Shown: positions 901-50,283, counted from the first letter of the stretch. The stretch is 64,000 bases of DNA from Candidatus Hydrogenedentota bacterium (GCA_963678445.1 OY782877.1:2602503-2666502), one strand, 5' to 3'. The notes: a model not told the origin generated them from the sequence alone. Translations and numbers: made by a program.

Positions 901-3399
901 ATGGAACGCATGCATGGTATTGTGCAACGTTTTGCGTTTTTAGTGACTAAAATTCCAAGAGTTGTCATAAAAAACGAAGTTTTGCTATGGTCAGGGACGG
1001 TGAGGACCAGACCTATAGCTTGCGGTCGCTGGACCGCTTTAGCGATCTTCAAAGCGGAAAAGGGAGCTGCAATTCGACGCTGGCTACAGCCCGTTTTCAT
1101 TCTTGGCGTGCTCATCGGCGGGATTAGCCTTTCCTATGCCGCGTTCGCATCATCCCACTATTTTTACAATGGTGCACAACGGGTCACGATATCGATACCA
1201 ACCGATGCGTTCTATGTCCAAGAAAAACCAGAACGTTCCCCTACACCCATTGTGCAACTATTTCCGGAGGCATTGTTCGAACGCAGTTATGCAAAGGGGA
1301 AGTATCTTTTACGCTTTCCTAACAAGCCGTTGGGGGAGCCCGCCCAAATTACAGCGCAATTACAAGAGGCCGGATGGGATGCCTTTCCTTTGATCTATTT
1401 CTCCGATACCCGCGAAGACATAAAAGGACAACGGCCCCGCATGTTGTTGCCCCGAATCAGTGTACGCCTTCCCGAGACAGCTTCGCTGGATAACCTGCTC
1501 GCCCGCTTCCCGGTTCAAAAAATAGAAGAAGTTGCCTACCTTCCCGATACATATATTCTGTCCCCCCTTTCGGATGTTTGGATTTCTGCTTTAGAGGTTG
1601 CCAATGCCCTGTATGAAAGCGGTCTGGTAGTATTTGCGACGCCGTGGGTTACGCAACGACGTGTGCTGCGAAGTATTCCCGATGATCCGCTGTTTTCTTC
1701 ACAATGGCACTTGCAGAATACCGCGCAAAACACGGGGGCGGTATCGGGTAACGATATCGATGTAGTCGATGCCTGGGACGATGCCACGGGGAGTGGGGTG
1801 CTTATTGCCATTACCGATGATGGTCTGGATCAAAGCCACGCAGATCTGGCTGCCCATGTAAGAGCCGACTTGGGACTCGACCTGGTAGATGACGATAACA
1901 ACCCTTCCGCAGGAGATCATGGCACCGCATGCGCCGGTTTGGCGGCTGCCATTGGAAATAACACGCTGGGCATTGCCGGGGTGGCCTACAATGCCGCGTT
2001 GGTCGGCGTGCGCCTCTTCGATTTAGAATATCCCGTGGACGATGATGAGGCGACAGCGTTTCAATACGGTGTTACAGCCGAAAATGACGCCGATATAATC
2101 GCTATTAATAACAATTCCTGGGGGCCTGCGGACGATGCCAGGCGTTTGGAAGGGCCGGGGCCGTTGGCGCAGGCGGCGTTGGAACAGGGGATACTGCAGG
2201 GACGCAACGGGAAAGGGGTTATTTATGTATGGGCAGGCGGTAATGGGCGTAGCCAAGGCGACAACGTAAACTACGATGGCTATGCCAACAGCCGTTATAC
2301 CATTGCCGTAGGTGCTTCCACCGATACCGGCGTATACGCTAGTTACAGCGAGGCGGGCGCGGCCCTGCTCCTAAACGCCCCCTCCAGCGGTGGAAACGCA
2401 GGCATTGTCACCACCGATTTTACCGGGGCAGCAGGCTATACCTCCACCGACTACGAAATGGATTTCGGCGGTACCTCCGCCTCCTGTCCACTCGTTTCCG
2501 GTGTCGTTGCGCTACTTTTGGAAACCAATCCAGCACTCACCTGGCGTGATGTACAAGATATCCTGCTGCGCAGCGCCACAAAGAACGATCCAACATCAGA
2601 CGGCTGGCGCACCAATGGAAGCGGCCTCTTGTTTCACCATGATTATGGATTTGGGCGTGTAAACGCAGAATTGGCAGTGAAAATGGCCCAGTCCTGGACC
2701 CTGCTTCCTGCTCAGGAGGCGGCACAAGAGTGGGAAGATGCCCCAGCAATGCCCATTCCTGATAACAACGCCCAAGGTATTGTGCTGCACAGATCGGTAA
2801 TTACGCCGGCCCGTTTCGTAGCGGAGCATGTTGAAGTGACGGTAGACATCAGTCACCCTCGACGCGGCGATTTGGAGATTAGTCTGATTTCACCCAGCGG
2901 TATGGAGTCGCAATTGACCAGAAAACACGATGACCCCAATGCCGACTTTTCCAACTGGTCCCTGATGTCGGTTGCTCACTGGGGAGAAGCGCCCAATGGC
3001 ATATGGACGCTCCGTGTTTGTGATCAACGCGGGGGCAATGTGGGGGTGCTCAACGCCTGGCGTTTAAGCATACATGGTTACCGTAGCGCCGATACAGTCC
3101 ACGAAGGAGAATCGGCCTATCATAGCGCCGACATCAACCAGGATGGCCAGATTAGCATAAGCGAACTCTTGCGGGTTATACAGCTCTATAACGCAAACGA
3201 ATACGGTTGCGACACCGGTTCAGAAGATGGCTACGCCCCTAACGGGTTGTTCCGTACCTGCCCGCCACACTACAGCGATTATGCCCCCGCAAACTGGCGC
3301 CTGGAACTTTCCGAACTGCTCCGCATCGTGCAGTTTTTCAATGCAACCGGCTATGAGCCTTGTGTGGAAAGCGAAGACGACTTTTGTCCTTTTCTTTAA
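901..3399 (+). CDS. Subtilisin-like serine protease of family S8 with a proprotein-convertase (kexin-like) P domain and a C-terminal dockerin-like or EF-hand-like segment. The true start is probably downstream of 901. An in-frame GTG at about 1108 precedes a hydrophobic signal or anchor segment.
   Basis: S8 catalytic motifs are present: Asp in IAITDDGLD, His in DHGTACAGLAAA and Ser in GGTSASCPLVSGVVALLLE. The P domain matches RRGDLEISLISPSGMESQL...WTLRVCD. The tail DINQDGQISISELLRVIQLYN matches a Ca-binding dockerin-like loop. The first 50 codons of the track ORF are occupied by a REP-like repeat. Confidence 0.85.
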   Translation: MERMHGIVQRFAFLVTKIPRVVIKNEVLLWSGTVRTRPIACGRWTALAIFKAEKGAAIRRWLQPVFILGVLIGGISLSYAAFASSHYFYNGAQRVTISIPTDAFYVQEKPERSPTPIVQLFPEALFERSYAKGKYLLRFPNKPLGEPAQITAQLQEAGWDAFPLIYFSDTREDIKGQRPRMLLPRISVRLPETASLDNLLARFPVQKIEEVAYLPDTYILSPLSDVWISALEVANALYESGLVVFATPWVTQRRVLRSIPDDPLFSSQWHLQNTAQNTGAVSGNDIDVVDAWDDATGSGVLIAITDDGLDQSHADLAAHVRADLGLDLVDDDNNPSAGDHGTACAGLAAAIGNNTLGIAGVAYNAALVGVRLFDLEYPVDDDEATAFQYGVTAENDADIIAINNNSWGPADDARRLEGPGPLAQAALEQGILQGRNGKGVIYVWAGGNGRSQGDNVNYDGYANSRYTIAVGASTDTGVYASYSEAGAALLLNAPSSGGNAGIVTTDFTGAAGYTSTDYEMDFGGTSASCPLVSGVVALLLETNPALTWRDVQDILLRSATKNDPTSDGWRTNGSGLLFHHDYGFGRVNAELAVKMAQSWTLLPAQEAAQEWEDAPAMPIPDNNAQGIVLHRSVITPARFVAEHVEVTVDISHPRRGDLEISLISPSGMESQLTRKHDDPNADFSNWSLMSVAHWGEAPNGIWTLRVCDQRGGNVGVLNAWRLSIHGYRSADTVHEGESAYHSADINQDGQISISELLRVIQLYNANEYGCDTGSEDGYAPNGLFRTCPPHYSDYAPANWRLELSELLRIVQFFNATGYEPCVESEDDFCPFL
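939..1048 (+). repeat. REP-like dispersed repeat copy, about 100 bp, ending in the GGTCGCTGGACCGCTTT motif.
   Basis: Sequence tagtgactaaaattcc...cttgcggtcgctggaccgcttt aligns with the units at 7901-8200, 32042-32165, 41502-41625, 45472-45612 and 59752-59870. Confidence 0.6.
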
Positions 3400-8200: not shown

Positions 8201-8304
8201 AAGATCGCGGCAAGGCTCCTATGCTTTACAGCGAAGCTGGAGGTTGTACCTACAGCAATGGCCCCATGCAGCGTGCCACCCATTGCATATATCGAGGTAG
8301 TGCC

Positions 8305-9846
8305 ATGCCGTTGAATGTTTGTGTGCTTACAGAAGCAAGTCCTTTTTCCTGGACGCATCACTATGTCAATGCGTTTCGTCAACGTTGCAATGTTTTTGCC
8401 ATCGGTCCCGTGCCCCCGGATGCTTTTTATACGATGCTGCATCTGGAACACTTAAAGTCTTTGGTGCAACCGCACGATATTACAGAAAGACTGCGTAATA
8501 TCACTGATCTAAAATCGTTATTGCCTACCGGTTTTGTTCCCGATCTCGTTGTTTGTGTGATGCCATGTGTTAGCCAAGACACCTTTTATGCAACAACAAG
8601 CTTAGACTGTCCCAGCGTCTTTATTAGCATCGATATCTGGCAAGATTTTGCAGATTATGAGACAGCCGTAAATTACGATTTTGTTTTTGTAGCGCAACGA
8701 GAATTTGTTCCGTATTTGCGGGCAACGGGCTCGTTGCATCCTGAATGGTTACCGTTGGCCTGTGCTCCCGAAGTGCACCACTCACTGTCCACGCCTCCCA
8801 CACATGATATTGCCTATGTCGGCTCGAGTATTTCCCCAGTGCACAGCGAACGCCTACGATTGTTATTGCGGCTTGAAAAACAGTTTAAAGTAAATCGGCA
8901 GAGTCATGTTTATGGAGAAGAATATTGCCGGGGACTAGCGTCTGGGAAAATCATTTTCAATTACAGCGCTTCTGGTGATCTTAACATGCGGATATTTGAG
9001 GCCATGGCGGTCGGACGTATGCTGTTAACCGATCGTCGTGCTGTCCGAAATGGCTTGCTTGATCTTTTTGAAGAGGGCAAAGAGTTAGTCACCTATACAA
9101 ACGAGGATGACCTGCTTGAAAAGGCTGCCTATTATTTGGCGCATGACGAGGAGCGCGAACGGATCGCGGCGGCAGGACGCGCGGCGGTATTGCAACATCA
9201 TACCTATGCGCATCGTATCGATAGAATATTGGAGGTGGTCGGTCCTGCTTGTGCACGGCAAAAGGCATTTCGGGAAAGCACAGCAACGCCCTCGCCGTTG
9301 CTACAGTTATTGCCTGCCAACCCGGGACGTGTTGCGGATCTGGGTATGAGCGGGTTACTAAGCAAGTATGCGGTTAAGAAATGGGGCGGCGAAAATTTTT
9401 TTGGCGTTTCGCTTGACGAGTGTACGCCGCGTAGCATGCGCTATGATCAGGTTGTGTGTTGGCTAGGAGAGGCGCAAAGCGCCGATACGGTATTGCTTTG
9501 CGATTGTGACACCACGGTACATTCTCTATCCACGCAAATAAGCGCTTCGTGGAAGCTTTTGGATGTTTGCGGAACGCTCATTCTTCTGGTATTGAGGGAA
9601 GCTCTGGAAAAAGCGGATATTCCGACCGATTTTGAGGAGCTCAACACCTGGATGCTCAAGTTGGATTTTTACCTTATCTACGGTAACGTGTTGCGCGAAG
9701 ATATGTTGGTGCTGCGTGCGCGCAAGCGTACTCGACGGATCTACGATGTTTATACCGAACTCAAGCAGAGTTATCCGCTAGAGCACACGATGATGAACCC
9801 CCGTTTTTTTGAAAGCCTTTCAGAAGAAATGCAGAGATTACTGTAA
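8305..9846 (+). CDS. CgeB-family (DUF3880 plus Glyco_trans_1_2-like) glycosyltransferase-domain protein with an additional C-terminal domain of about 180 aa. Paralog 1.
   Basis: The CgeB-like C-terminal GT motif runs KIIFNYS...NMRIFEAMAVGRMLLTD...ELVTYTNEDDLLEKAAYYLAHDEERERIAAAGRAAVLQHHTYAHR. The start was set at the Met aligned to the paralog start (MPLNVCVLTE) with GAGGT upstream. The track ORF starts at 8221. Confidence 0.75.
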   Translation: MPLNVCVLTEASPFSWTHHYVNAFRQRCNVFAIGPVPPDAFYTMLHLEHLKSLVQPHDITERLRNITDLKSLLPTGFVPDLVVCVMPCVSQDTFYATTSLDCPSVFISIDIWQDFADYETAVNYDFVFVAQREFVPYLRATGSLHPEWLPLACAPEVHHSLSTPPTHDIAYVGSSISPVHSERLRLLLRLEKQFKVNRQSHVYGEEYCRGLASGKIIFNYSASGDLNMRIFEAMAVGRMLLTDRRAVRNGLLDLFEEGKELVTYTNEDDLLEKAAYYLAHDEERERIAAAGRAAVLQHHTYAHRIDRILEVVGPACARQKAFRESTATPSPLLQLLPANPGRVADLGMSGLLSKYAVKKWGGENFFGVSLDECTPRSMRYDQVVCWLGEAQSADTVLLCDCDTTVHSLSTQISASWKLLDVCGTLILLVLREALEKADIPTDFEELNTWMLKLDFYLIYGNVLREDMLVLRARKRTRRIYDVYTELKQSYPLEHTMMNPRFFESLSEEMQRLL

Positions 9847-9864
9847 CGAATGCGGAGTGGTGCT

Positions 9865-11391
9865 ATGCCGTTGAATGTTTGTGTGCTTACAGAGGCAGGG
9901 CCTTTTTCCTGGACGCATCACTATGTCAATGCGTTTCGTCAACGCTGCAACGTTTTTACTATCGGTCCTGTGCCCCCGGAAATCTTTTATGACGCACTTC
10001 ATCTGGAACATTTAAAACCTTTAGTGCAACCCCACGATGTTACGACGGAACTGCAGACTATTACCGATCTCAAATCGTTGTTGCCTGCCGACTTTATTCC
10101 CGATCTGGTTGTTTGCGTGATGTCATGCATTGTTCAGCAGGCCTTTTATGCCACGACGAAATTGGATTGCCCCAGTGTCTTTATTAGTATCGACACCTGG
10201 CAAAATTTCAAAGACTATGCTGCTGCCATAAATTATGATTTTGTTTTTGTCGCGCAACGAGAGTTCGTTCCGTATTTGCGAGCAACAGGCTCCGTGTGTC
10301 CTGAATGGCTGCCGTTGGCCTGTGCTCCCGAAGTGCATCATCCACTACCCACGCCTCCCACGCATGATATTTCCTATGTTGGTTCGAGCAGTTCACCGGT
10401 GCACGGCGAACGCATGCGGCTGCTATCGCAACTTGGAAAACATTTTCGCGTGCATCAGCAGAGCAGTGTTTATGGAGACGAATATTGCCGTAGTTTGTCC
10501 GCCGGGAAAATTATATTTAATCACAGCGCCGTGCGCGAAGTGAACATGCGCATTTTTGAGGCTATGGCGGTCGGACGCATGCTGTTGACCAATCGAGAGG
10601 CAGATCGTAACGGACTGTTGACGCTCTTTACCGATGGGGTCGAGCTGGTTACCTATACGGACGAAGAAGACCTGCTTGAAAAGGCTGCCTATTATTTGGC
10701 GCATGACGAGGAGCGCGAACGGATTGCAGCGGCAGGATGCGCGGCGGTATTGCAGCACCATACCTACACGCATCGCATCGATAGGATATTGGAGGTGGTC
10801 GGTCCTGCTTGTGCACGGCAAAAAGCATTTCGGGAAAGCACAGCAACGCCCTCGCCGTTGCTACAGTTATTGCCTGCCAACCCGGGACGTGTTGCGGATC
10901 TGGGTATGAGCGGGTTACTAAGCAAGTATGCGGTTAAGAAATGGGGCGGCGAAAGTTTTTTTGGCGTTTCGTTTGACGAGTGTACGCCGCGTAACATGCG
11001 CTATGATCAGGTTGTGTGTTGGCCAGGAGAGGCGCAAAGCGCCGATACGGTATTGCTTTACGATTGTGACACCACGGTACATTCGTTACCCACGCAAATA
11101 AGCGCTTCGTGGAAGCTTTTGGATGCTTGCGGCACGCTCATTCTTCTGATGTCCCGGGGAACGCTGGCAGAAAATAATCTTGAGCCAGCGCAACTCAATA
11201 TGTGGATGCTCAAATTGAATTTTTACCTTATTTATGCGGGCGTAACGGGGGACGATAGATTTTTACTGCATGCGCGCAAACGTACACGACGCATCTACGA
11301 TATCTATGCCGAGATCAAACAGCACTACCCAATGGAACACACTATGGTAGAGGCTTGTTTTGCCGAAGACGAGCAGTTAAGGCAGTTTTAA
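9865..11391 (+). CDS. CgeB-family glycosyltransferase-domain protein. Paralog 2, in tandem with 8305..9846.
   Basis: Same architecture as paralog 1. Long stretches are near-identical at nucleotide level, for example 9204-9437 against 10764-10997. GGAG lies upstream of the ATG. Confidence 0.75.
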   Translation: MPLNVCVLTEAGPFSWTHHYVNAFRQRCNVFTIGPVPPEIFYDALHLEHLKPLVQPHDVTTELQTITDLKSLLPADFIPDLVVCVMSCIVQQAFYATTKLDCPSVFISIDTWQNFKDYAAAINYDFVFVAQREFVPYLRATGSVCPEWLPLACAPEVHHPLPTPPTHDISYVGSSSSPVHGERMRLLSQLGKHFRVHQQSSVYGDEYCRSLSAGKIIFNHSAVREVNMRIFEAMAVGRMLLTNREADRNGLLTLFTDGVELVTYTDEEDLLEKAAYYLAHDEERERIAAAGCAAVLQHHTYTHRIDRILEVVGPACARQKAFRESTATPSPLLQLLPANPGRVADLGMSGLLSKYAVKKWGGESFFGVSFDECTPRNMRYDQVVCWPGEAQSADTVLLYDCDTTVHSLPTQISASWKLLDACGTLILLMSRGTLAENNLEPAQLNMWMLKLNFYLIYAGVTGDDRFLLHARKRTRRIYDIYAEIKQHYPMEHTMVEACFAEDEQLRQF

Positions 11392-12766: not shown

Positions 12767-13186
12767 TCAAGTCGTATGCAATTCCAAAGCCAGTACAAAT
12801 CCAGTTCGCATCATAACGGTGCATAGCGGTCTTTGGCAAAAAAAACTTTATCCGCCTCGCCGAAGTTATATTTAGGAGACGTCTTAAAAAGCCCCCCAAA
12901 ATTGTTTCGTCGTTTTTGGGGTGCAGGCTGCGGTAACTATGCAAGCTGCCGCTAATGCGAATACGTATTCTCTCTTGACGGTTGTGCAAGATTCTTTTAT
13001 AATTTTATCTTAGATTCACTCCATTGCCGCAGATTAAAGTATAAGTGAAGAACAGGAACGGCATGGAAAGCTAAAAGAATAGCGCATATAAACGCACATT
13101 GCACCACCAAAATGTAAAAAAAACCTTGCTGCAAGATGCAGACAAAATGCGGGAAAGTGAAAAAAATCAAAAGCGCGACAAGATAT

Positions 13187-13470: not shown

Positions 13471-14283
13471 ATGAAGATGTTGCGTATCAGCCGAAGGAGT
13501 CAACTGGGGCGTTCGAAGTTTGCCCTGGCGCTCATGACCTTGACGTTAATTCTGGGCGTAGCGGCAGTACCGGCCTCGGCCCAAACCGTCACCTATAACC
13601 AAACTGTCCCCGCGACCTATCAAGCTGACAATGAAGTCACCGTAGTTTTGGAACTAACCAAGACTGCCGGCGACGGAGTCATTACCGCCTTGGGTGTTTC
13701 TCTCGTTATTCCCACCGGTTGGGAATTGGTGCTTGAAGCTCCCGATCCTGTCGAAGGACAGCTTTGCATTCCGGATATCACCTACGTATCCCCCAACGAC
13801 GGCCCTCCCGTTTTCGCTAAAGCCCCCTCTCCCGTCTATCTAGACGAAACTGCCGGCGCGGAAGTTTGTAACCCCTACGTTTCCCCCATCGAACTCGTCT
13901 GGGCGCCCAACGAAGCAGCTGAAGGCGAAAATAACGCGCCGCCTACCTTCCCTACCAGCGTCACCCTGAAGCTGAAAGTGCCTGCCGATGCAGATGGCGA
14001 CGTCTCCATTATCGGTACCGCCTTCTACCGTCTCGACGGCACCGAGCAATCCACCGCACCCGCGACCAGCAATCTGAGCCTAGCGACAGGCGTGCGTGGT
14101 GATGCCGATTGTAGCGGTGCGGTCAATATTTTTGACGCCCTCAAGATTCGTCAGCTGCTGGCCAGCCTGATCGACAGCATTGGCTGCCCCGAGCTGGCTG
14201 ACGTAAGTGGCAATGATACAGTTGATATTTTTGATGCTCTTAGAATTAGCCAGTTCCTGGCGGGTTTGGTTGACACACTCTAA
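13471..14283 (+). CDS. Secreted protein with a C-terminal type-I-like dockerin domain and an N-terminal beta-rich domain that may be cohesin-like.
   Basis: Signal peptide MKMLRISRRSQLGRSKFALALMTLTLILGVAAVPASA. Two Ca-binding dockerin segments are present: DADCSGAVNIFDALKIRQLL and DVSGNDTVDIFDALRISQFL. AGGGAG lies 9 nt upstream of the ATG. Confidence 0.8.
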   Translation: MKMLRISRRSQLGRSKFALALMTLTLILGVAAVPASAQTVTYNQTVPATYQADNEVTVVLELTKTAGDGVITALGVSLVIPTGWELVLEAPDPVEGQLCIPDITYVSPNDGPPVFAKAPSPVYLDETAGAEVCNPYVSPIELVWAPNEAAEGENNAPPTFPTSVTLKLKVPADADGDVSIIGTAFYRLDGTEQSTAPATSNLSLATGVRGDADCSGAVNIFDALKIRQLLASLIDSIGCPELADVSGNDTVDIFDALRISQFLAGLVDTL

Positions 14284-14377
14284 GAGCTGTACAAATGAGA
14301 GAAATGCAGTACATGACTGCAAAACCATATTAGCCGGGGCCTCGGCAACGAGGCCTCCCAATCTGGGGAGGTACACA

Positions 14378-17300
14378 ATGAGAACAAAGACAAGTAGGAT
14401 GTTTCGCAGCATGCCCTTGTGGGTGCTTTGCCTGACAGCGCTGTGCGTTGTCAGCAGCGGTGCATTTGCCGCCGTTGGAGACATTACCATTTCAGCACCT
14501 GCTGAAGCACAAAATACCGGTGATACCTTTGAAGTCGAAGTTACCTTCGATGCGGGCACTGGCGTATTAGGTGCATATGATTTAGTGTTTACTTTTGATA
14601 AAACTATTTTTCAAGTCAATAGCGTTGCCGGAGGAACGACCAGTGAATTCAGTGGTCCACCCACCAGCAACGTTCAAAACGATTCCGGCCAAGTGCTTTT
14701 TAACGCCGTGAACGCCGTCAGTCTGACCTCGCCTACCGGTGTAGTCAGCATTGCGCGTTTCACTGTTGAAGTGATTGGCAATCCTTCGGGCGGAACCAGT
14801 AACTTGGGTATTACAGTAACCGCTATTGGCGATACGACTGGTTCGTCCTTTGATACGGTAACACCGGTTGCGGGAACAGTCACACTGACAGAACCGCCTC
14901 TCGACGCTGTGATTGATTTGGCGCTGCCAGATACGTCTCCCGAAGCCAGTTCCCAGTTCACAGCCGAATTAACCATTGATGTTGGTGATAAGGTATTAGG
15001 CGCATATGACTTCAAATTGGTCTACGATAAAGACGTTGTTACAGTAGCGAAGGTCCTTGGTGGTTCGACCAGTGAATTCAGTGGTCCTCCAACCGCCAAC
15101 ATCCAGAATGAGTCTGGTCAAGTTCTGTTTAACGCCGTGAACGCCGTCAGCCTGTCTTCTCCGACGGGTGTAGTCAGCATCGCCAACATCACCTTTGATG
15201 TTGTAGGCGAAGCGGCGAGTTCTACCGCTATCGAAGTGCGCGTAACCGCATTGGGCGACACCGGTGGTTCCAGCCTGACAGTTGAAAACTTCAGCGAAAC
15301 CTTGACGGTAGCCGCAGGGCCACCCGATGCGGTGATCGATCTGGCTCTACCAGAAACCGATCCTGCGCCGAGTTCGCAATTCACGGCAGAATTGACGATT
15401 GATGTTGGTGATGATAACGTATTAGGCGCATATGACTTCAAATTGGTCTACGATAAAGACGTTGTTACAGTAGCGAAGGTCCTTGGTGGTTCGACCAGTG
15501 AATTCAGTGGTCCTCCAACCGCCAACATCCAGAATGAGTCTGGTCAAGTTCTGTTTAACGCTGTGAACGCCGTCAGCCTGTCTTCCCCGACGGGTGTAGT
15601 CAGCATCGCCAACATCACCTTTGATGTCGTAGGTGAAGCAGGCGCTTCTACCGCTATCGAAGTGCGCGTAACCGCATTGGGCGACACCGGTGGTTCCAGC
15701 CTGACAGTTGAAAACTTCAGCGAAACCTTGACGGTGTTGGATCAAGACGTCACTGATCCGACAGCGGTCTGTCAAAGCATCACCGTGCAGCTGGATGCTT
15801 CAGGAGCAGCCAACATCACAGCGGAACAGGTAGACAATGGCAGTTCCGATAATGTCGGTATTGACAGCATGGGCGTTTCGCCGAGTTCTTTCAGCTGTGC
15901 GGATCTGGGTGACAATACCGTTACCTTGACCGTGGCCGATGCAGCCGGTAACAACGCAACATGCGAGGCCACAGTAACCGTGGTGGACAACATTGCGCCA
16001 GTAGCCGTTTGCCAAAACATTACAGTCAATCTGAGTGCATTGGGCACTGCTACAATCACTGCTGCTCAGCTTGACGGCGGAAGTAGCGATAACTGCGGTA
16101 TTACCACCATGACGGCTAGCAAAGACAGCTTTACCTGCGCTGATCTTGGTGCGAATGACGTGACCTTCGCAGTTGAAGATGCCTCCGGAAATGGCGACTC
16201 CTGCACGGCGACGGTAACGGTGGTAGATGTTACGCCGCCGACCATCACCCTGACAGGCGCCAGCCCTGTGACCGTTGAATGCGGTGGCGACTACACCGAT
16301 GCCGGTGCCACTGCAATTGATACCTGCGATGTCGATTTGACGAACAGTATCATAGTCGGCGGTGACACCGTTGATACGACAACGCCGGGAAGCTATACCA
16401 TCACCTATAACGTGAGCGACACAGCAGGTAATGCTGCGACGCAAGTCACGCGTACCGTCAACGTTACCGATACAACAGCGCCAGTCGTTACCTTGAATGG
16501 TGCCGACAGTGTCACCATCGAATGTGGCGACACCTATATTGATGCGGGTGGTACGGCAACGGACAGCTGTGATTCCAGCAGCTTGACGGTAACCACCAAT
16601 GCCGCTACAGCAGTGAATACAGCTGCAGCAGGTACCTACACCGTAACCTTGCGTGCAGAAGATGCCAGCGGCAATGTCGGTACGGCAACACGTGAAGTAA
16701 AGGTGGAAGATACAGAAGCCCCAGTCATTAGCTTGATTGGTTCGGTCGCGGTTGAAGTTGAATGCGGTGGTATCTATGCAGACCAGGGTGCAAGTGCAAC
16801 CGATAGCTGCGCCGGTGACCTGAGCGCCAATATCGTAGTTAACAACCCGGTTGATACAACATCTCTGGGCGAATACACAGTAACCTACAACGTGAGCGAT
16901 GCTACCGGTAATGCGGCTGAGCAAGTCACGCGTACAGTCACGGTCGTTGACGAAGTCGCTCCCACACTGGTGTTAGTAGGCGGCAACGTGACCGTTGAAT
17001 GTGGCGATTCCTACACGGATGCCGGTGCAACAGCGACGGATACCTGTGAAGGCGACTTGACGGCGAGCATCGTTGCCACTGGCATCGACGCCGTTGATAC
17101 GGCAACGCCGGGCACCTACACCATCAGCTACAACGTAAGTGACACCGCTGGCAATGCTGCGGATCAGGTTGCACGCACAGTGCAGGTGATTGACACCACC
17201 ATTCCAGTGATTACCCTGGCAGGTGCAAATCCGCTGACCGTAGACTGCAGCGACAGCTACACCGATCCTGGCGCTAGCGTTGAAGATGCCTGCGACACGA

Positions 17301-18619
17301 ACCTCGCAGAAGTCATCATCAACAGCGCAAACGTTGTGCCAGATGTTGCCGGTACCTATACCGTAAGCTTCAGTGCGACGGACGAAGCCGGTAATACAGC
17401 GACAGCAACACGTACGGTTATCGTTGATGGTCCGAACTGTGGTGGTGAAGGCGAAGGCGAAGGCCAGGTTCCAGAAGGTGAAGGCGAAGGTCAAGCGGCA
17501 ATCTGTGAAGACGTCAATGGCGATGCTATCGTCGACAATCCCTTCATCTGCCTGCTTCAAGACGGCAGCCGTTGGGATGCCGCTGCTAACCTTGGCGGAA
17601 CCTGCGCACGTAACGTCTCCATGGTTACCTGGTTTGGCAATGTTGCAGGTGCGGATGTAGCCCTGACCGTTGCTAACCCCGCCGATGCAACCCAAGAAGT
17701 GACCGTTACCGTACCACGCGGCGTCTTGGCGGCTGATGAACAGGCCGTATTGATGCTGACCGTATCTTGTGACGATCTCACCAGCTTGTTGGGTGCAGGC
17801 GAAGCCGCTCTCGTCGGTGAAGAACCCAGTGGCTTCGTTGCCGGTGGTCTTTTCTTCGATGTTAGCATCCTCGTTACCAACGACGGTGGTGCAACCTACG
17901 CCGAACTTGATAACCGTGTACTCGAAGCACAGCCGGTCCGTCTGAGCCTCAACGGCTTGGCCTTCACGCCGGGTGCTGTGCCCTCCTTCTACGCATATCC
18001 GACCGAGATGGTCTTTGACATGGTCAACGGCTTTGGGCTGGAAGTGACAGCAGGTGCGGCATGGAGTGCGGGTATGTTGCAGAACGTAACCGCAGACGGT
18101 GCAACCTTAACGGCTGAGACGGCAGAGCTCTCCATCTTCGGTGCCTACGAAACCATGCCGATGGGTCCGGTGCTTTCGGTCTCCCCGAATCCTGCCTACG
18201 ATGTGGTCGCGGGTATCGTCGAAGTGGGTCAATCTGTTGACACCACCCTGACCCTGAGCAACATCGGCGGTGGTGTTCTTAACGGAACAGCTACCCTGAA
18301 CGATCCGGCGGGTGTCTTCACCTTGGTCAGTGACCCCAACTACAGCTTGGGTGAAGCTGCGGCGTTGACCATTCGCTTTACGCCGGCGGCTGCACAAGAG
18401 TACACCGCTGAGTTGACTCTGAGTGGTGGCGAAAACGACGTAGTAATCACCCTTACCGGTGCTGGTACGACCGTTGCCAAACGCTACAGCTTCTTCGGCT
18501 GCTCGCCGGTGACGGCGTCTGGCGCAGGACTGTTCGGCGACCTGCTCGCGATTGCCATCGTGGTAATGGCACTGGTCGGGTTCGGACGCTTCTACCGTCG
18601 GAATAGCCAGGAAGGCTAA
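14378..18619 (+). CDS. Giant surface protein of 1413 aa. It has a signal peptide, three cohesin-like modules, two HYR-like domains, six DUF5011-like Ig domains, a GEGEGEG linker, a 370-aa C-terminal region and a sorting-signal-like tail.
   Basis: Cohesin-like pattern GDTFEVEVTFDAGTGVLGAYDLVFTFDKTIFQVNSV...SGQVLFNAVNA...TGVVSIARFTVEVIG. The DUF5011-like repeat (P-x-I-T-L-x-G-x-x-x-V-x-V-E-C-G-x-x-Y-x-D-x-G-A-x-A-x-D-x-C) occurs six times. GGGGAGGT lies upstream of the MRTK start. The track ORF starts at 14207. Confidence 0.85.
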   Translation: MRTKTSRMFRSMPLWVLCLTALCVVSSGAFAAVGDITISAPAEAQNTGDTFEVEVTFDAGTGVLGAYDLVFTFDKTIFQVNSVAGGTTSEFSGPPTSNVQNDSGQVLFNAVNAVSLTSPTGVVSIARFTVEVIGNPSGGTSNLGITVTAIGDTTGSSFDTVTPVAGTVTLTEPPLDAVIDLALPDTSPEASSQFTAELTIDVGDKVLGAYDFKLVYDKDVVTVAKVLGGSTSEFSGPPTANIQNESGQVLFNAVNAVSLSSPTGVVSIANITFDVVGEAASSTAIEVRVTALGDTGGSSLTVENFSETLTVAAGPPDAVIDLALPETDPAPSSQFTAELTIDVGDDNVLGAYDFKLVYDKDVVTVAKVLGGSTSEFSGPPTANIQNESGQVLFNAVNAVSLSSPTGVVSIANITFDVVGEAGASTAIEVRVTALGDTGGSSLTVENFSETLTVLDQDVTDPTAVCQSITVQLDASGAANITAEQVDNGSSDNVGIDSMGVSPSSFSCADLGDNTVTLTVADAAGNNATCEATVTVVDNIAPVAVCQNITVNLSALGTATITAAQLDGGSSDNCGITTMTASKDSFTCADLGANDVTFAVEDASGNGDSCTATVTVVDVTPPTITLTGASPVTVECGGDYTDAGATAIDTCDVDLTNSIIVGGDTVDTTTPGSYTITYNVSDTAGNAATQVTRTVNVTDTTAPVVTLNGADSVTIECGDTYIDAGGTATDSCDSSSLTVTTNAATAVNTAAAGTYTVTLRAEDASGNVGTATREVKVEDTEAPVISLIGSVAVEVECGGIYADQGASATDSCAGDLSANIVVNNPVDTTSLGEYTVTYNVSDATGNAAEQVTRTVTVVDEVAPTLVLVGGNVTVECGDSYTDAGATATDTCEGDLTASIVATGIDAVDTATPGTYTISYNVSDTAGNAADQVARTVQVIDTTIPVITLAGANPLTVDCSDSYTDPGASVEDACDTNLAEVIINSANVVPDVAGTYTVSFSATDEAGNTATATRTVIVDGPNCGGEGEGEGQVPEGEGEGQAAICEDVNGDAIVDNPFICLLQDGSRWDAAANLGGTCARNVSMVTWFGNVAGADVALTVANPADATQEVTVTVPRGVLAADEQAVLMLTVSCDDLTSLLGAGEAALVGEEPSGFVAGGLFFDVSILVTNDGGATYAELDNRVLEAQPVRLSLNGLAFTPGAVPSFYAYPTEMVFDMVNGFGLEVTAGAAWSAGMLQNVTADGATLTAETAELSIFGAYETMPMGPVLSVSPNPAYDVVAGIVEVGQSVDTTLTLSNIGGGVLNGTATLNDPAGVFTLVSDPNYSLGEAAALTIRFTPAAAQEYTAELTLSGGENDVVITLTGAGTTVAKRYSFFGCSPVTASGAGLFGDLLAIAIVVMALVGFGRFYRRNSQEG

Positions 18620-18653
18620 ATCACAAGCCAAATACAGCTGAGTTAATCGTAAA

Positions 18654-18692
18654 GCCCCGCAGGCGCTGCTTGCGGGGCTTCGTTGTGTGTAT
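18654..18692 (+). terminator. Rho-independent terminator-like hairpin downstream of the giant surface-protein gene.
   Basis: GCCCCGCAGG-cgctg-CTTGCGGGGC followed by the T-rich cgttgtgtgt. Confidence 0.5.
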
Positions 18693-20974: not shown

Positions 20975-21096
20975 AATAGTTTGGCTCCCCATGGTTGTTG
21001 GCCGTTACATGCACACCTCATTTTGCATAATAGCACATGCACGCATTTTCGCCTATGCTGTTTTTAAAGGACGCCGCCAACAGAACAGGGCCGTAG

Positions 21097-21438
21097 TTAA
21101 GTGTCGAGTAAATCCATCATGTCGCGGACTTCATCATTGATTTTGTCCAGCAGATCGATTACCTCCTGATTGGTTTTTGGCCGGCCTTCCCCGTGTAATT
21201 CCTGTGCTAAACGCAAGCGGGCCCCATCAATGGTCATTTTTTCGTGCCGCAGTAAAAAGTGGATGCGCCGGATAATCTCCACATCTCTTTTGAGATAATA
21301 GCGGCGCCCGCTACGATCCCGACGGGGATGTAGCTGGGGGAATTTGGCTTCCCACTGTCGTAATAGATGCGGCGCGATATGGGTAAGCTCGCTTACCTCG
21401 CTTATTTTCAGGCGCCGTTCGGTATTTGATATATCCAT
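21097..21438 (-). CDS. MerR-family transcriptional regulator.
   Basis: N-terminal helix-turn-helix LKISEVSELTHIAPHLLRQWEAKF...YYLKRDVEIIRRIHFL followed by a coiled-coil dimerisation region. Confidence 0.8.
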   Translation of the reverse strand: MDISNTERRLKISEVSELTHIAPHLLRQWEAKFPQLHPRRDRSGRRYYLKRDVEIIRRIHFLLRHEKMTIDGARLRLAQELHGEGRPKTNQEVIDLLDKINDEVRDMMDLLDT

Positions 21439-22046
21439 GCGGTGTGTTACTCAATGTGTTTCTCAGGTCTTACGGTATAGTAGCGAATTTTCCTCGAAAA
21501 TATCTAACGCGGTCCAGCGAGCGCAGGCAGGTGAGCAGCGGCACAACCGATAAAGAAAATGGCATACGGCCCATTGTGCTGATTGTGCCCAAAGCCGAAC
21601 AGCTCGAAGCGGCTGATTTTCCACGGGGATATAATCCGCGACGTCCGCAGGATAGCATTCTCAAGGCGATGGCGGGGAAAGCTCTTTGCATCGATCTGCT
21701 GTCCCTGCTACAGGAAGAAACCACCCGACATGAAGGCCCGTATTGGTGGAACATCCCCCATGACGGCCATTTCTCCGAAGAAGGGCACGCATTCGTAAAA
21801 TCCGTCCTTTTGAAGTACTTGGGGAAGGAGAAAACGGGGTCGATTAGGCAGGAAATCGAAGTTATTGGCGCAGAGAGTTTTTTGCAAAAAATTGAGAAGT
21901 TGTGTTACAGTCAATGGGTTGCTTATATAGTAAGCAGCAAAATTGCCTTGATTGAAGGGCACAACTACGAATACATAGTAGTTTGTTTTTGGACGCTTTG
22001 CATTTATGATTGCTTCTATCTGCGTTTGAGGGGACTGCAACGGTAA
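21426..22046 (+). CDS. Hypothetical ORF running from normal-GC sequence into the low-GC island. The start is uncertain and a GTG at about 21527 is possible. It may not be a real gene.
   Basis: The only support is the ORF-track ORF. No recognisable domain was found. Composition shifts partway through the ORF. Confidence 0.25.
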   Translation: MIYPCGVLLNVFLRSYGIVANFPRKYLTRSSERRQVSSGTTDKENGIRPIVLIVPKAEQLEAADFPRGYNPRRPQDSILKAMAGKALCIDLLSLLQEETTRHEGPYWWNIPHDGHFSEEGHAFVKSVLLKYLGKEKTGSIRQEIEVIGAESFLQKIEKLCYSQWVAYIVSSKIALIEGHNYEYIVVCFWTLCIYDCFYLRLRGLQR

Positions 22047-22119
22047 CGCAGTATTTATAGAAGGTAATACCAATGTATAGTTCAGGTTAGTTTATTGTTT
22101 TTTGATTACATGAGAGTAG

Positions 22120-22148
22120 TTGACAAAAGAGCTATAAATGATTATATT
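22120..22148 (+). promoter_or_regulatory. Near-consensus sigma70-type promoter, TTGACA-N17-TATATT, inside the low-GC island.
   Basis: gtagTTGACAaaagagctataaatgatTATATTtac lies about 45 nt upstream of the 22193 ORF. Confidence 0.4.
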
Positions 22149-22192
22149 TACAATATTAAGTCATATAGTCTAAATGAAAGGGGATAGGTGTC

Positions 22193-22393
22193 ATGCCCAG
22201 TCATGAAAATGAGATACCTATTAGTGAACAGGCGAAAAAAGAAGTGTGTGAAGTGATTAAGGGTCAGCCTTGTGGGGTATTAGCACAAGACATTTGGCCG
22301 GAGGCACTTGAATGTGCGGAAAGAATGAAGCAACAAGTTGCCGAAGAGCAAACGGCAGCGATTCGATTTGGACAGTGTGAACCACTTTATTAG
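22193..22393 (+). CDS. Small 66-aa protein with four Cys residues, encoded in the low-GC island.
   Basis: GGGGATAGGTG lies upstream of the ATG. The four cysteines are CEVIKGQPCG...ECAERMK...GQCEPLY. A GGCCTT/AAGGCC hairpin follows the stop. Confidence 0.4.
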   Translation: MPSHENEIPISEQAKKEVCEVIKGQPCGVLAQDIWPEALECAERMKQQVAEEQTAAIRFGQCEPLY

Positions 22394-22500
22394 TCGGCCT
22401 TTTATACAATAAGGCCTTGCGTGGGCTTGCTTTCTAGGGGAAAGAGGGTATAGTATTTTCTTTGCATTATTCCCCTATTTAGATAGTTGAGGAATTTTGT

Positions 22501-24219
22501 ATGCAGACGTTGTGTCGTATTCTTGTGACCACGCTCAAAGAAGATACGTTTAGCTTTTTCCGTTATACTCGTGATATTGCTGGCCCAAAACCTCCAGAAC
22601 CTTTGCGAAAAGTTTGCTCTTTAATGCGAACTATGGGGTGTGCCTTCGTTGTTGAAGAAGAGGTGGAGGTAACACCGGAAGCTAAGGAAGAGGTCCGGCT
22701 TCTTGAAAGGTTCAGGAATAAGGGACCTATAGCGCGTACCGTAAAACGGCTGTCTTTTTTTAGGCTTTCCTGTCAGTCAAACGCATTAGACTCTACGTCT
22801 CTTGAAAAGGAACTTACCGCTGATTTTTCCACCTTATCTACCGTGCAATATGATCTGTCGAAGCAGACGGAGCGGTTTAATAAGTTTGTTTCCTTACCTA
22901 ACAAGTACGACCTAAAATTACTTGGAATACTAACACTTCATGTGGATTATCAAGGGAAAGAGTTACTTGGTGCCTATGTTCAGGAAGCATTCATCCGAAA
23001 TTCACCGAGTTTATGTGAATTTATCCACAGTGAGGCAAAACAAAAATTTTTTGTGCTTGGTAAGGAATTTTCGATAACGGGAAGCTATTTTGCCCAGCAG
23101 CAGGGAAGGTTAACCTGTTGTGCTCATGCAGCCCTCATGGTAGTAGCCAAAAATATCTACGCAGCGCTCAACAAGGAGTGTCCTTTATCCTATAGTAAAA
23201 TCAATGGCATTCTTAAGATTGATTCTGAGGAGTTCTCCACCGAATGTGTATGCAAAGGACTTTCACCTGAAGAGATGCAAAAAGCGCTTCGGGACGGAGC
23301 TGGAATTCAGTCAGTGATCATGCGTGCGTCTCCCGACGGAACTACTTTGACAACCCCAGCAGAATTGATCAACGCTGTTTACCATTGTGTCGAAGTTGGG
23401 CTCCCCACAATTATTTGTTTTAGCGGAGACAACCAATCTCATGCCATGGCCGTCGTTGGGCATAATTTTGCCCCAAATCTTTGGCAAGGATGTGTCACGA
23501 ATGCCTATTTTTCCTGCACGCAATCTCAACCCTATTTGCCGAGTCATAGTTGGGTCGAAGGATTGCTGGTGCAAGATGACAACTTTGGGCCATATTGCTT
23601 ATTGCCCAAAAAAATTCTCGATAAACTAAAATTGGTGGCGATATTGCCTCAATTTCCTCAGAATATACTATACGGGCGACCCGAGTATGCTGAAATTGCG
23701 ATAGTCCGTGGATTGAAGAATAGTTTTTGCAAAAATAGTGTATACACTTTGATTCAGGATATTTCTACTTCTCATGTTTCGTCGAATGTAAAAGAGCTGT
23801 TTTGGTTCAAAACACTATGCGAAAATTTTGATAAAAACAGACTAATTCTTCGAACTACCCTGTGTACAAAAGACCGATATATAAACCACTTAAACGAACT
23901 TTTCATGTTTAATTCTAAACAGCCAGCGTTTAAAACGTTGCAAAATCATCTCTTTGAAAACCCTTTTTGGTTTGTGGAAATCAGTGTGCCCGAATTGTTT
24001 ACACACAATCGGCATAAGCTCGGCGAAGCAATTGTCTATAGAACAAGCGAAAAGATTTGCGTTGTCTCGGCAATACGGTTGCCAGGAGTATTGACATTAG
24101 TGAATAGTTTGGGCGAACTAGAGCATTTTTATCTTGAAAATGCTACATATCATTATCCACTTATTGAACGATGCGAGGAGGTATTTGAAGATACCTTTGA
24201 ATTGCAATGTACGGCGTGA
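22501..24219 (+). CDS. Hypothetical 572-aa protein with a possible papain- or transglutaminase-like thiol-hydrolase signature (Gln, Cys, His, Asp). It is encoded in the low-GC island and no family was assigned.
   Basis: GAGGAA RBS 7 nt upstream. Candidate catalytic elements are AQQQGRLTCCAHAAL (Q-x5-C), SHAMAVVGHNF (His) and LLVQDDNFG (Asp). AT-rich codon usage is atypical for this window. Confidence 0.7.
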   Translation: MQTLCRILVTTLKEDTFSFFRYTRDIAGPKPPEPLRKVCSLMRTMGCAFVVEEEVEVTPEAKEEVRLLERFRNKGPIARTVKRLSFFRLSCQSNALDSTSLEKELTADFSTLSTVQYDLSKQTERFNKFVSLPNKYDLKLLGILTLHVDYQGKELLGAYVQEAFIRNSPSLCEFIHSEAKQKFFVLGKEFSITGSYFAQQQGRLTCCAHAALMVVAKNIYAALNKECPLSYSKINGILKIDSEEFSTECVCKGLSPEEMQKALRDGAGIQSVIMRASPDGTTLTTPAELINAVYHCVEVGLPTIICFSGDNQSHAMAVVGHNFAPNLWQGCVTNAYFSCTQSQPYLPSHSWVEGLLVQDDNFGPYCLLPKKILDKLKLVAILPQFPQNILYGRPEYAEIAIVRGLKNSFCKNSVYTLIQDISTSHVSSNVKELFWFKTLCENFDKNRLILRTTLCTKDRYINHLNELFMFNSKQPAFKTLQNHLFENPFWFVEISVPELFTHNRHKLGEAIVYRTSEKICVVSAIRLPGVLTLVNSLGELEHFYLENATYHYPLIERCEEVFEDTFELQCTA

Positions 24220-24443
24220 TTATCTGCGAAACTTTTTGCATAATACCCCTCTGCGTTGAAAAATAGGGCATGCAAAGGCGCTGAGTCGCAAAGTACGCAC
24301 GTTATCAACGTATACAGGAAATGGCTGGCGACATAGGCTTTCGTATGCGTCCTCACGGGGGAGCTTGGGGACGAGTAAAGGCGGGCGGCGTTCTGTTGTG
24401 GGGTGCCGAGCCGGGTGGGTAGAGGCAGGGAAGAATGAGAGGG

Positions 24444-50074: not shown

Positions 50075-50283
50075 GGTGTTCTCCTTTTTTCGAACACTAC
50101 CGATTTTTTGTATTCCGTAAGATGTTGGCGTTGTTGGATTGTGTTTACTTTCGTACAACCCCAGCGCATGTGTCTGCATAGATGCTACCGCCTTGTGCTG
50201 GACGAGTCAAGCATGAACCGCTACAATGGAGGCGTTGTTGCGCTCTGTTCATAGATTTCGAAACAGTATTTTGGGGAGGTAAT

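What the first reader, a model, noticed from the sequence alone, without database searches (positions are those of the whole stretch)
13471..18619. Cohesin/dockerin-type surface assembly locus in a non-cellulosomal, flagellated anaerobe
Two adjacent genes are involved. The first encodes a 270-aa secreted protein with a canonical two-segment dockerin (DADCSGAVNIFDAL...DVSGNDTVDIFDAL). The second encodes a 1413-aa secreted protein with three N-terminal cohesin-like modules. Their sequence pattern (GDTFEVEVTFDAGTGVLGAYDLVFTFD...SGQVLFNAVNA...VVSIARFTVEVIG) matches the type-I cohesin beta-sandwich signature. These modules are followed by 2 HYR-like and 6 DUF5011-like Ig domains, a Gly-Glu linker, an uncharacterised 370-aa region and a membrane-anchoring tail. 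About 10 kb away, an S8 kexin-like protease (901..3399) ends in a dockerin-like Ca-loop segment. Together these suggest a scaffoldin-like surface platform. It could recruit dockerin-tagged enzymes such as the protease, and perhaps polysaccharide-degrading enzymes encoded elsewhere. Noncellulosomal cohesin/dockerin modules are known from comparative genomics. Experimentally defined assemblies outside clostridial cellulosomes are rare.
Basis: partly seen in the sequence, partly recalled or inferred. Interest (0 to 1): 0.7.

Follow-up and report, generated by a model that had tools for sequence, protein, structure and literature searches.

The report
Two-gene cohesin–dockerin surface adhesin cassette
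Two neighbouring genes encode a long cell-surface stalk protein tipped with three cohesin sockets and a small secreted protein carrying the matching dockerin plug; this pair is conserved in Hydrogenedentota-like bacteria and most likely forms a two-part surface adhesin rather than an enzyme-carrying cellulosome.

Summary
Gene 1 (13471-14283) encodes a 270-aa secreted protein: an orphan beta-sandwich followed by a canonical two-segment dockerin that just passes Pfam's threshold. Gene 2 (14378-18619) encodes a 1413-aa protein with a signal peptide, 3 cohesins, 2 HYR, 5 (not 6) DUF5011-type Ig domains, a Gly-Glu linker, a 230-aa unknown region, a choice-of-anchor-D-like Ig domain, and a Cys-motif/TM/basic tail. 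The AF2 model of cohesin 1 (pLDDT 91) matches only cohesins in the PDB.

The small gene is directly followed by an orthologous cohesin-tipped giant gene in 8 of 9 distinct loci, one from Candidatus Hydrogenedens sp. Dockerin type and cohesin type switch together in all 8 (2 "A" pairs, 6 "B" pairs). This argues for a dedicated cognate pair: a stalk that displays a partner loaded in trans.

The partner has no recognisable catalytic domain, and no other dockerin lies in the 64 kb. The S8 protease tail is a different, recurrent EF-hand-like module that scores below the dockerin threshold. Binding itself is untested.

Verdict: a new variant of non-cellulosomal cohesin-dockerin systems, of moderate interest.

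The parts
13471..14283 (+). Gene 1: 270-aa secreted 'beta-sandwich + dockerin' protein (P0001)
   Evidence: ORF. Exact protein is on record on a 5.11-Mb contig. Family members were found by exhaustive HMMER.
13471..13581 (+). Signal peptide (aa 1-37, ...PASA|Q)
   Evidence: Read from the sequence. A37 and Q38 are invariant in the family alignment.
13582..14091 (+). Orphan N-domain (aa 38-207): beta-sandwich with a long loop bracketed by two invariant Cys (C99, C133) and the motif CNPYVSPIELVW
14098..14280 (+). Two-segment type-I-like dockerin (aa 210-270): GDADCSGAVNIFDALKIRQLLASL ... ADVSGNDTVDIFDALRISQFLAGL
   Evidence: Pfam Dockerin_1 23.3 bits against 22.9. PDB best hits are dockerins. 774 library proteins match at E<=1e-3, and nearly all of the 150 listed match only the dockerin end of the query.
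14338..14355 (+). GC-rich hairpin (GGCCUCG-GCAA-CGAGGCC) in the 94-bp spacer, with no U-tract, just upstream of the gene-2 Shine-Dalgarno sequence
   Evidence: RNA fold of 14284-14380: -31.9 kcal/mol, z = -3.0. Function unknown.
14378..18619 (+). Gene 2: 1413-aa cohesin-tipped surface stalk protein (P0003)
14378..14470 (+). Signal peptide (aa 1-31, ...GAFA|A)
   Evidence: Read from the sequence.
14471..14890 (+). Cohesin module 1 (aa 32-171), type 'A'
   Evidence: Pfam Cohesin. AF2 pLDDT 90.8. All listed Foldseek hits are cohesins. A1 HMM E 4e-52.
14903..15313 (+). Cohesin module 2 (aa 176-312), type 'A'
   Evidence: A1 HMM E 2e-57. 48-55% identical to module 1.
15326..15736 (+). Cohesin module 3 (aa 317-453), type 'A'; recent duplicate of module 2
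   Evidence: 92-94% amino-acid identity to module 2. 426-bp tandem repeat at 14948-15735, 95% matches.
15746..16222 (+). Two HYR domains (aa 457-535, 537-615)
   Evidence: Pfam HYR 62 bits. Self-search boundaries.
16244..17425 (+). Five Bact_surface_Ig-like (DUF5011-type) domains (aa 623-696, 704-776, 784-856, 864-937, 945-1016)
   Evidence: Pfam PF16403 292 bits, 5 stretches. Self-search.
17432..17497 (+). Gly-Glu linker (PNCGGEGEGEGQVPEGEGEGQA)
   Evidence: Read from the sequence. A similar linker is present in the L005 orthologue.
17498..18187 (+). Unassigned region of about 230 aa, conserved in orthologues
   Evidence: No Pfam or NCBIfam hit. Lies inside the 31-32%-identity alignment with the L005 and L006 proteins.
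18188..18472 (+). HYDIN/VesB-type Ig domain, choice-of-anchor-D-like
   Evidence: PF22544 25.7 bits against 25.5 on the isolated region. NF012200 scores 28.4 bits, below its cut-off of 45.
18473..18616 (+). C-terminal tripartite tail: FFGC motif, about 12 residues, TM helix, then RFYRR basic cluster
   Evidence: Read from the sequence. The GC...TM...basic pattern is conserved in the L005, L006 and L012 orthologues. No NCBIfam sorting-signal model hits it.
18652..18680 (+). Terminator-like stem-loop (13-bp stem, 9 GC pairs) after gene 2
   Evidence: The overall count of such sites in the region is not above shuffled expectation.

Best explanation
The two genes form a dedicated two-component surface structure.

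Gene 2 makes a fibre-like stalk of about 1400 aa: 2 HYR domains, 5 Ig-like domains, a linker and further domains. Its C-terminal Cys-motif/TM/basic tail holds it at the cell envelope, and three cohesin modules sit at its far (N-terminal) end. Gene 1 makes a small secreted protein whose C-terminal dockerin plugs, with calcium, into those cohesins. Up to three copies of its disulfide-looped beta-sandwich domain are therefore displayed at the tip of the stalk. The assembly most likely works as a modular adhesin or ligand-binding tip, not as an enzyme scaffold.

Shown here: domain identities, the cohesin fold, secretion signals, conserved gene order, and co-variation of dockerin and cohesin types.

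Inferred: physical binding, stoichiometry, tip display, an adhesive role, and the way the tail anchors the protein.
For: 1. Domain calls pass curated thresholds, and the cohesin fold is confirmed structurally.

2. The genes are co-oriented and 94 bp apart, with a terminator-like hairpin only after gene 2.

3. Exhaustive HMMER finds a small family with the same 'sandwich + dockerin' architecture at 24-35% N-domain identity. In 8 of 9 distinct loci the small gene is followed within about 50-120 bp by a large secreted protein whose N-terminus carries 1-3 cohesins: window/L001, L009/L013, L005, L006/L007, L008, L010, L012 and L015. Where the sequence is complete (L005, L006/L007, L012), it is an orthologue of gene 2: L005 and L006 align at 31-32% identity over aa 434-1412, and all three end in the GC...TM...basic tail.

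4. Types co-vary 8 out of 8.
- Classic IFDAL/INIGDAL dockerins sit next to 'GAYD...TSEFSG...SLTSPTG' cohesins (type A: window, L009).
- 'GDADGxGxVDPADAQ' variant dockerins sit next to 'FGVExxYD...WGLVNGN' cohesins (type B: six loci).
- Neither cohesin HMM cross-hits the other type at E<1e-3.
- In the N-domain tree the A pair nests among B lineages. This implies a joint replacement of the dockerin in one gene and the cohesins in the other.

6. No other Pfam-grade dockerin motif is present in the 64 kb.
Against: - No binding was tested.
- Phylogenetically, the co-variation amounts to about one switch event, so it is suggestive rather than statistical proof.
- The N-domain tree rests on about 25-35% identity.
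- One related locus (L014) has two tandem small genes and no giant gene on its 4.8-kb contig.
- The dockerin passes Pfam's gathering score by only 0.4 bit.
- The rest of the genome could hold many other dockerin proteins that share these cohesins.
- The N-domain function is unknown, and its model is low-confidence (mean pLDDT 55).
- The tail matches no curated sorting-signal model.
Confidence: 0.6

Rival explanations
1. General scaffoldin. The three cohesins recruit a range of dockerin-tagged enzymes encoded across the genome, including the S8 protease. This would be a cellulosome-like multi-enzyme surface platform, with the upstream small protein as just one of many clients.
For: - There are multiple cohesins, and module 1 differs from modules 2 and 3 (48-55% identity). 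Different specificities are therefore possible.
- A related metagenomic locus (L008) carries a dense network of cohesin- and dockerin-bearing proteins.
- The window encodes secreted glycan-degrading enzymes.
Against: - There is no second dockerin in 64 kb.
- The S8 tail scores below the Dockerin_1 threshold, and its best matches are EF-hands.
- The conserved 1:1 adjacency and the type co-variation argue for a dedicated partner.
- The scaffold carries no CBM.
- The hydrolases in the window (sulfatase, heparinase-like, DUF4838) have no dockerin.
Confidence: 0.2
2. No cohesin-dockerin pairing at this locus. The cohesin-fold modules act only as distal Ig-like adhesive or spacer domains of a fibrillar adhesin. 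The small protein's dockerin binds something else, or merely binds calcium.
For: - Non-cellulosomal cohesin-like and dockerin-like modules are widespread, and few have a demonstrated partner (PMC4611034; PMC10066038).
- Many single-cohesin proteins lack an obvious dockerin partner.
Against: - The joint switch of dockerin and cohesin type in adjacent genes is hard to explain without an interaction.
- The gene order is conserved across lineages that share only about 25% identity.
Confidence: 0.12
3. Adaptor or polymer model. The N-domain of the small protein is itself a divergent cohesin-like socket. The small protein would then be an adaptor, or would polymerise head-to-tail, extending the structure from the stalk tip.
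Against: - The model is low-confidence.
- Profile-profile comparison with cohesins gives probability 4%.
- Generic adhesin and pilin sandwiches score equally well.
Confidence: 0.06

Closest known systems
Cellulosomal scaffoldin / type I cohesin-dockerin systems (e.g. C. thermocellum CipA, C. cellulolyticum CipC, C. acetobutylicum CipA)
   Same: Same two domain families. There are tandem cohesins on a cell-associated protein and a two-segment Ca-loop dockerin with near-symmetric helices. The best structural neighbours of cohesin 1 are type I cohesins, with TM about 0.8.
   Different: - The scaffold has no CBM.
- No dockerin-tagged glycoside hydrolases are seen.
- Anchoring is by a C-terminal Cys-motif/TM/basic tail, not by SLH domains or sortase.
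- The cohesins sit at the tip of a HYR/Ig stalk.
- The client is a single small protein with no recognisable catalytic domain, encoded immediately upstream.
- The host is probably a diderm of a candidate phylum, not a Firmicute.
Non-cellulosomal cohesin/dockerin modules known from comparative genomics (Peer et al. 2009, cited in PMC10066038; Archaeoglobus fulgidus cohesin, PDB 2xdh)
   Same: Cohesin and dockerin modules occur outside cellulose degraders. 2xdh is among the structural matches. Most partners are unknown.
   Different: Here the cognate partner can be nominated from conserved adjacency and type co-variation across 8 loci. I did not find this described in the searchable literature.
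Ruminococcus bromii amylosome (PMC4611034) and Clostridium perfringens cohesin-dockerin glycosidase/toxin complexes (PDB 2jh2, 2vo8, 2w1n)
   Same: These are experimentally supported uses of cohesin-dockerin pairs for non-cellulosic extracellular assemblies.
   Different: Those systems assemble enzymes in Firmicutes. This one pairs a small protein with no recognisable catalytic domain with an Ig-stalk protein.
Gram-negative fibrillar / RTX-type giant adhesins with Ig-like stalks and distal ligand-binding domains
   Different: In those adhesins the tip domains are part of the same polypeptide. Here the tip module would be supplied in trans through a cohesin-dockerin joint.
Cys-containing tripartite C-terminal sorting signals (MYXO-CTERM and relatives; Haft 2023 bioRxiv 10.1101/2023.06.07.544157; PMC11980579)
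   Same: The tail has a short motif with a conserved Cys (GC), then a hydrophobic helix, then a basic cluster. It follows a choice-of-anchor-like Ig domain and is conserved in orthologues.
   Different: No curated model matches it. No CPBP/myxosortase-like gene was seen among the ORFs scanned in the window. Processing is entirely inferred.

Membership tests
Cohesin (Pfam PF00963) | Sequence match above the curated gathering score | tested here: met
   44.6 bits against 24.1, with 3 stretches.
Cohesin (Pfam PF00963) | Nine-stranded jelly-roll beta-sandwich fold of solved cohesins | tested here: met
   AF2 model pLDDT 90.8. All 50 Foldseek PDB hits listed are cohesins, with TM up to 0.82.
Cohesin (Pfam PF00963) | Binds a dockerin | not testable with these tools
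The only evidence is indirect, from co-variation.
Dockerin type I (Pfam PF00404) | Sequence match above the gathering score | tested here: met
   23.3 bits against 22.9, E 7.2e-5, which is marginal. The relative P0065 scores 38.2 bits. PDB best hits are dockerins.
Dockerin type I (Pfam PF00404) | Two duplicated segments of about 22 residues, each a 12-residue Ca loop (ligands at positions 1, 3, 5, 9, 12) plus a helix | tested here: met
   Read from the sequence: D-A-D-C-S-G-A-V-N-I-F-D + ALKIRQLLASL, and D-V-S-G-N-D-T-V-D-I-F-D + ALRISQFLAGL.
Cellulosome (scaffoldin-based cellulolytic complex) | Scaffoldin carries a cellulose-binding CBM, and the clients are dockerin-bearing plant-cell-wall hydrolases | tested here: not met
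   Gene 2 has no CBM. The only dockerin client in 64 kb has no recognisable catalytic domain. The rest of the genome was not scanned.
Cellulosome (scaffoldin-based cellulolytic complex) | Cell anchoring through SLH domains or a sortase motif | tested here: not met
   No SLH or LPXTG. The protein ends in a GC/TM/basic tail.
Dockerin (applied to the S8 protease tail, window 3082-3396) | Dockerin_1 match above the gathering score, with two intact Ca loops | tested here: not met
   14.6 bits against 22.9, one segment only. The second loop (DYAPANWRLELSE) lacks the ligands. The best PDB matches are EF-hand proteins.
MYXO-CTERM-like Cys-containing C-terminal sorting signal | Tripartite tail: a motif with an invariant Cys, a TM helix and a basic cluster at the extreme C-terminus | tested here: met
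   Window, L005, L006 and L012 orthologues all show GC - 10-13 aa - TM - basic.
MYXO-CTERM-like Cys-containing C-terminal sorting signal | Match to a curated sorting-signal HMM and presence of a cognate CPBP-family sorting protease | tested here: not met
   No NCBIfam hit at E<=10. No CPBP protease among the ORFs scanned in the window. The genome-wide search was not possible.
Choice-of-anchor D domain (NF012200) | Score above the curated cut-off | tested here: not met
   28.4 bits against a cut-off of 45 (E 1.9e-6). PF22544, an Ig domain of the same kind, passes only just (25.7 against 25.5).

The most novel reading that the evidence does not exclude
Hydrogenedentota-like bacteria may build their cell-surface appendages from interchangeable plug-and-socket parts.
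- A cohesin-tipped Ig stalk, anchored by an undescribed Cys-type sorting signal, is loaded in trans with a dockerin-tagged tip domain.
- Cohesin-dockerin specificities are swapped as matched pairs between lineages.
- A second, undescribed duplicated EF-hand-like docking module (the S8 protease tail, 'SLSELLRVIQFYN...GYxC...EDGF') links proteases and further cohesin proteins into the same network.

This would be a non-enzymatic, adhesin-type use of the cellulosome joint in a diderm candidate phylum.
Probability: 0.3. Interest if true: 0.65.

Novelty: new variant of a known kind. Interest (0 to 1): 0.5.

Why it matters
Cohesin-dockerin pairs are the classic high-affinity joint of cellulosomes and a widely used tool in synthetic biology. 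Outside cellulolytic Firmicutes, however, few natural pairs have a known partner or purpose (PMC4611034).

This locus offers a directly testable cognate pair in an uncultured-type phylum, plus two naturally orthogonal specificity classes (A and B) that switched together. If confirmed, it would show that the joint is used to assemble a two-piece adhesin. It would also supply new orthogonal pairs for protein engineering, and give a handle on the surface biology of Hydrogenedentota-like bacteria.

Tried and rejected
- **Naming the source genome.** The exact-protein look-up of the 270-aa protein found nothing. The GTDB genome scan with the 1413-aa protein returned only HYR/Ig hits in Bacteroidota and a Firmicute MAG. 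The window has no Rfam hits such as rRNA. The phylum assignment therefore rests only on one family member being labelled Candidatus Hydrogenedens sp. and on shared lineage-specific modules.
- **Collection scans with alignments.** The narrower A4 scan only re-found the P0065 locus.
- **afdb50 fold library.** It was unavailable.
- **Is the small protein's N-domain a cohesin?** hhalign gives probability 4%. The PDB profile search gives only a weak hit to a Gram-positive anchoring protein. Fold searches are ambiguous on a low-confidence model. The question is left open.
- **Microsynteny via the AF_1845-like neighbour.** This is not supported by tblastn and was dropped.
- **Promoter scan.** One 11/12 sigma-70-like site lies at 12975-13003. 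However, the number of sites in the region is below shuffled expectation, so it is not used as evidence.
- **L011 (P0015, a type-A cohesin protein).** A Dockerin_1 gene lies about 7.5 kb away, but its dockerin is beyond the end of the fetched locus, so this is uninformative.
Full report
**1. Observation**

The two ORFs are present as described. The 1413-aa product starts at ATG 14378, behind a GGGGAGG Shine-Dalgarno sequence, not at the GTG 14207 listed mechanically. Both proteins are on record verbatim on a 5.11-Mb contig. A 98.5-99% identical pair lies on a 926-kb metagenomic contig, L001.

Pfam gives the following:
- Dockerin_1 on residues 210-263 of the 270-aa protein: 23.3 bits against a gathering score of 22.9, E 7e-5.
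- Cohesin, three stretches: 44.6 bits.
- HYR: 62 bits.
- Bact_surface_Ig-like (ex-DUF5011): 292 bits.
- A HYDIN/VesB-type Ig domain near the C-terminus.

Both dockerin loops have Ca ligands at positions 1, 3, 5, 9 and 12, followed by near-identical helices (IFDALKIRQLLASL and IFDALRISQFLAGL). The best PDB sequence matches of the dockerin are all dockerins. An alignment of 14 metagenomic homologues with the three window modules gave an AF2 model of cohesin 1 with pLDDT 90.8. All 50 Foldseek PDB hits listed for this model are cohesins. Type I cohesins rank first, with TM about 0.8.

- There are five Ig repeats, not six.
- The '370-aa unknown' region contains a choice-of-anchor-D-like Ig domain: NF012200 at 28 bits (below its cut-off) and PF22544 at threshold.
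- Cohesins 2 and 3 are a recent 426-bp tandem duplication.

**2. Surroundings**

The genes are co-oriented and 94 bp apart. The spacer holds a stable GC hairpin without a U-tract, and a strong terminator-like hairpin follows gene 2. The rest of the window is ordinary chromosome:
- NrdD/NrdG, flagellin, FlgK, NadA, PFK, FtsA-like and PurA.
- A sulfatase, a heparinase II/III-like protein and a DUF4838 protein.
- Sensor kinases, a CHAT-TPR protein and an S8+P-domain protease.

A six-frame motif scan found dockerin-like loops only in gene 1 and in the S8 tail.

**3. Relatives**

The word-indexed search found no relative of the 270-aa protein apart from itself. The exhaustive HMMER search found full-length relatives: P0065, P0067, P0088 and P0171. 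It also found hundreds of proteins that match only the dockerin. A profile search then recovered more members, one of which NCBI labels Candidatus Hydrogenedens sp. (GCA_016125095.1, lineage).

All members share the following:
- A signal peptide.
- An N-domain of about 170 aa with two invariant Cys that bracket a variable loop, and a C-x-P...(P)IE-x-F-W motif.
- A C-terminal two-segment dockerin.

Genomic context was retrieved for nine distinct loci. In eight of them the small gene is followed within about 50-120 bp by a large secreted protein that starts with 1-3 cohesin modules. Where the sequence is complete (L005, L006/L007, L012), the large protein is an orthologue of gene 2. The L005 and L006 proteins align with it at 31-32% identity from the HYR region to the end, and all three share the acidic Gly-rich linker, the unassigned region, the Ig domain and a GC...TM...basic tail. 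The exception is L014. It has two tandem small paralogues and no giant gene on its 4.8-kb contig.

**4. Co-variation**

Two dockerin classes exist.
- Class A is classic: window 'VNIFDAL', P0065 'INIGDAL' (Pfam 38 bits).
- Class B is a variant: 'GDADGxGxVDPADAQxxF' with a shortened second loop. It has no Pfam hit, but it aligns with the A dockerin at the same position.

Two cohesin classes exist.
- Class A has the pattern 'GAYD...TSEFSG...SLTSPTGVVS'.
- Class B has the pattern 'FGVExxYD...WGLVNGN', and scores Pfam Cohesin 69.7 bits in L008.

HMMs built for each cohesin class do not cross-hit the other class at E<1e-3. The pairing is perfectly concordant. A goes with A in the window/L001 and in L009/L013. 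B goes with B in L005, L006/L007, L008, L010, L012 and L015.

If the eight loci were independent, the chance of this concordance would be 1 in 28. They are not independent, so the pattern is effectively one joint switch. In an N-domain NJ tree the A pair nests among B lineages, with P0067 and P0088 as sisters. The dockerin in one gene and the cohesins in the neighbouring gene therefore appear to have been replaced together. Two unrelated proteins also combine a cohesin with a classic dockerin in one chain: P0060 (a type-A cohesin) and P0221 (a cohesin-like N-terminus with an IFDAL-type dockerin). This is the strongest available evidence that the two modules are cognate partners.

**5. Mechanism proposed**

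**6. The S8 protease**

The S8 and P-domain calls are solid. The 105-aa tail is a duplicated unit: a loop, then the helix 'S(L/I)SELLR(V/I)(I/V)Q(L/F)(Y/F)N', then 'GYxC...EDG(Y/F)'. Only the first loop is a good EF-hand. Dockerin_1 scores 14.6 bits, and the best PDB matches are calmodulin-like proteins.

The same module, at 44-53% identity, occurs five times in the related locus L008:
- At the C-termini of three cohesin-bearing proteins.
- At the N-terminus of the small-family member P0220.
- In one further ORF.

It is thus a separate, mobile, lineage-specific module that travels with cohesin/dockerin proteins. Nothing links it to the type-A cohesins.

**7. Comparison and novelty**

Non-cellulosomal cohesin and dockerin modules are known from comparative genomics. 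A few functional non-cellulosomal systems are known, and examples in non-cellulolytic species are described as few. Searches for Hydrogenedentes/Hydrogenedentota together with dockerin or cohesin found no description of this cassette.

The tail resembles the tripartite Cys-containing sorting signals of the MYXO-CTERM kind. However, it matches no curated model, and no cognate protease was seen in the window.

I class the locus as a new variant of a known kind. The modules are familiar. The architecture is new: cohesins on an Ig stalk, a dedicated client with no recognisable catalytic domain loaded in trans, and matched-pair switching. The host lineage is also new for this kind of system. The main limits are that there is no binding evidence, only 64 kb of the genome was visible, and the phylum assignment is indirect.

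Noticed in passing
window 3082-3396 (C-terminal 105 aa of the S8/P-domain protease, gene 901-3399); L008 9260-9541, 10229-10519, 14675-14956, 18313-18582, 20458-20733(-): An undescribed duplicated module of about 95 aa: an EF-hand-like loop, the helix 'SLSELLRVIQFYN', then 'GYxC..EDGF', twice over. It has no Pfam or NCBIfam family. It ends the window's S8 protease and recurs five times (44-53% identity) on cohesin/dockerin-bearing proteins of a related metagenomic locus. It may be a second docking or sorting module.
   Followed up: partly
L005 15015-17840; L006/L007 15010-17848; L012 6051-9059; L014 2314-4792: In type-B relatives the cassette is followed by a 79-80-aa ORF with a Ser/Thr/Cys-rich C-terminus (e.g. 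...SKSCWFTCGISCAKTNQ) and a RamC_N/Pkinase/LANC_like gene. This looks like a class III/IV lanthipeptide cluster. It is absent from the window. In L014 it follows two tandem small dockerin genes with no giant gene between.
   Followed up: no
window 14338-14355: A stable GC hairpin (GGCCUCG-GCAA-CGAGGCC) without a U-tract lies between the two genes, just before the gene-2 ribosome-binding site. The region folds at z = -3.0. It is identical in the sister strain. It could be an mRNA processing, stability or translation-coupling element that sets the small:large protein ratio.
   Followed up: partly
L008 5262-18594: A related metagenomic locus holds a dense cohesin/dockerin network. It includes a 290-aa cohesin protein, a 1075-aa fn3+dockerin+cohesin protein, the small-family member P0220, a 1221-aa protein (2 type-B cohesins + HYR + dockerin + cohesin) and a 1136-aa Kelch+cohesin protein. 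Most of them end in the S8-tail module.
   Followed up: partly
window 8221-9846 and 9850-11391: Two tandem paralogous Glyco_trans_1_2 genes (541 and 513 aa) lie upstream of the cassette, after NrdD/NrdG. The same arrangement is in the sister strain L001. Their role is unknown.
   Followed up: no
window 40-819, 26501-27814, 50182-52653, 52805-55621: Several genes suggest a lifestyle of degrading sulfated glycans or glycosaminoglycans rather than cellulose: a DUF4838 protein, a sulfatase (SGSH-like) and a DUF4962/heparinase II/III-like protein. A TPR-CHAT protein lies nearby.
   Followed up: no
window 22501-24219, 57522-59771, 41859-44054: Three large ORFs (572, 749 and 731 aa) have no significant Pfam family. 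They were not examined further.
   Followed up: no
L001 17506-21368 versus window about 21000-24400: The sister strain carries a D12-class methyltransferase, an AAA/SMC-like ATPase and an IS (rve) element between the AF_1845-like gene and the SLT transglycosylase gene. At the corresponding place the window has different ORFs (21426-22046, 22501-24219). This is a strain-variable island next to the cassette.
   Followed up: no
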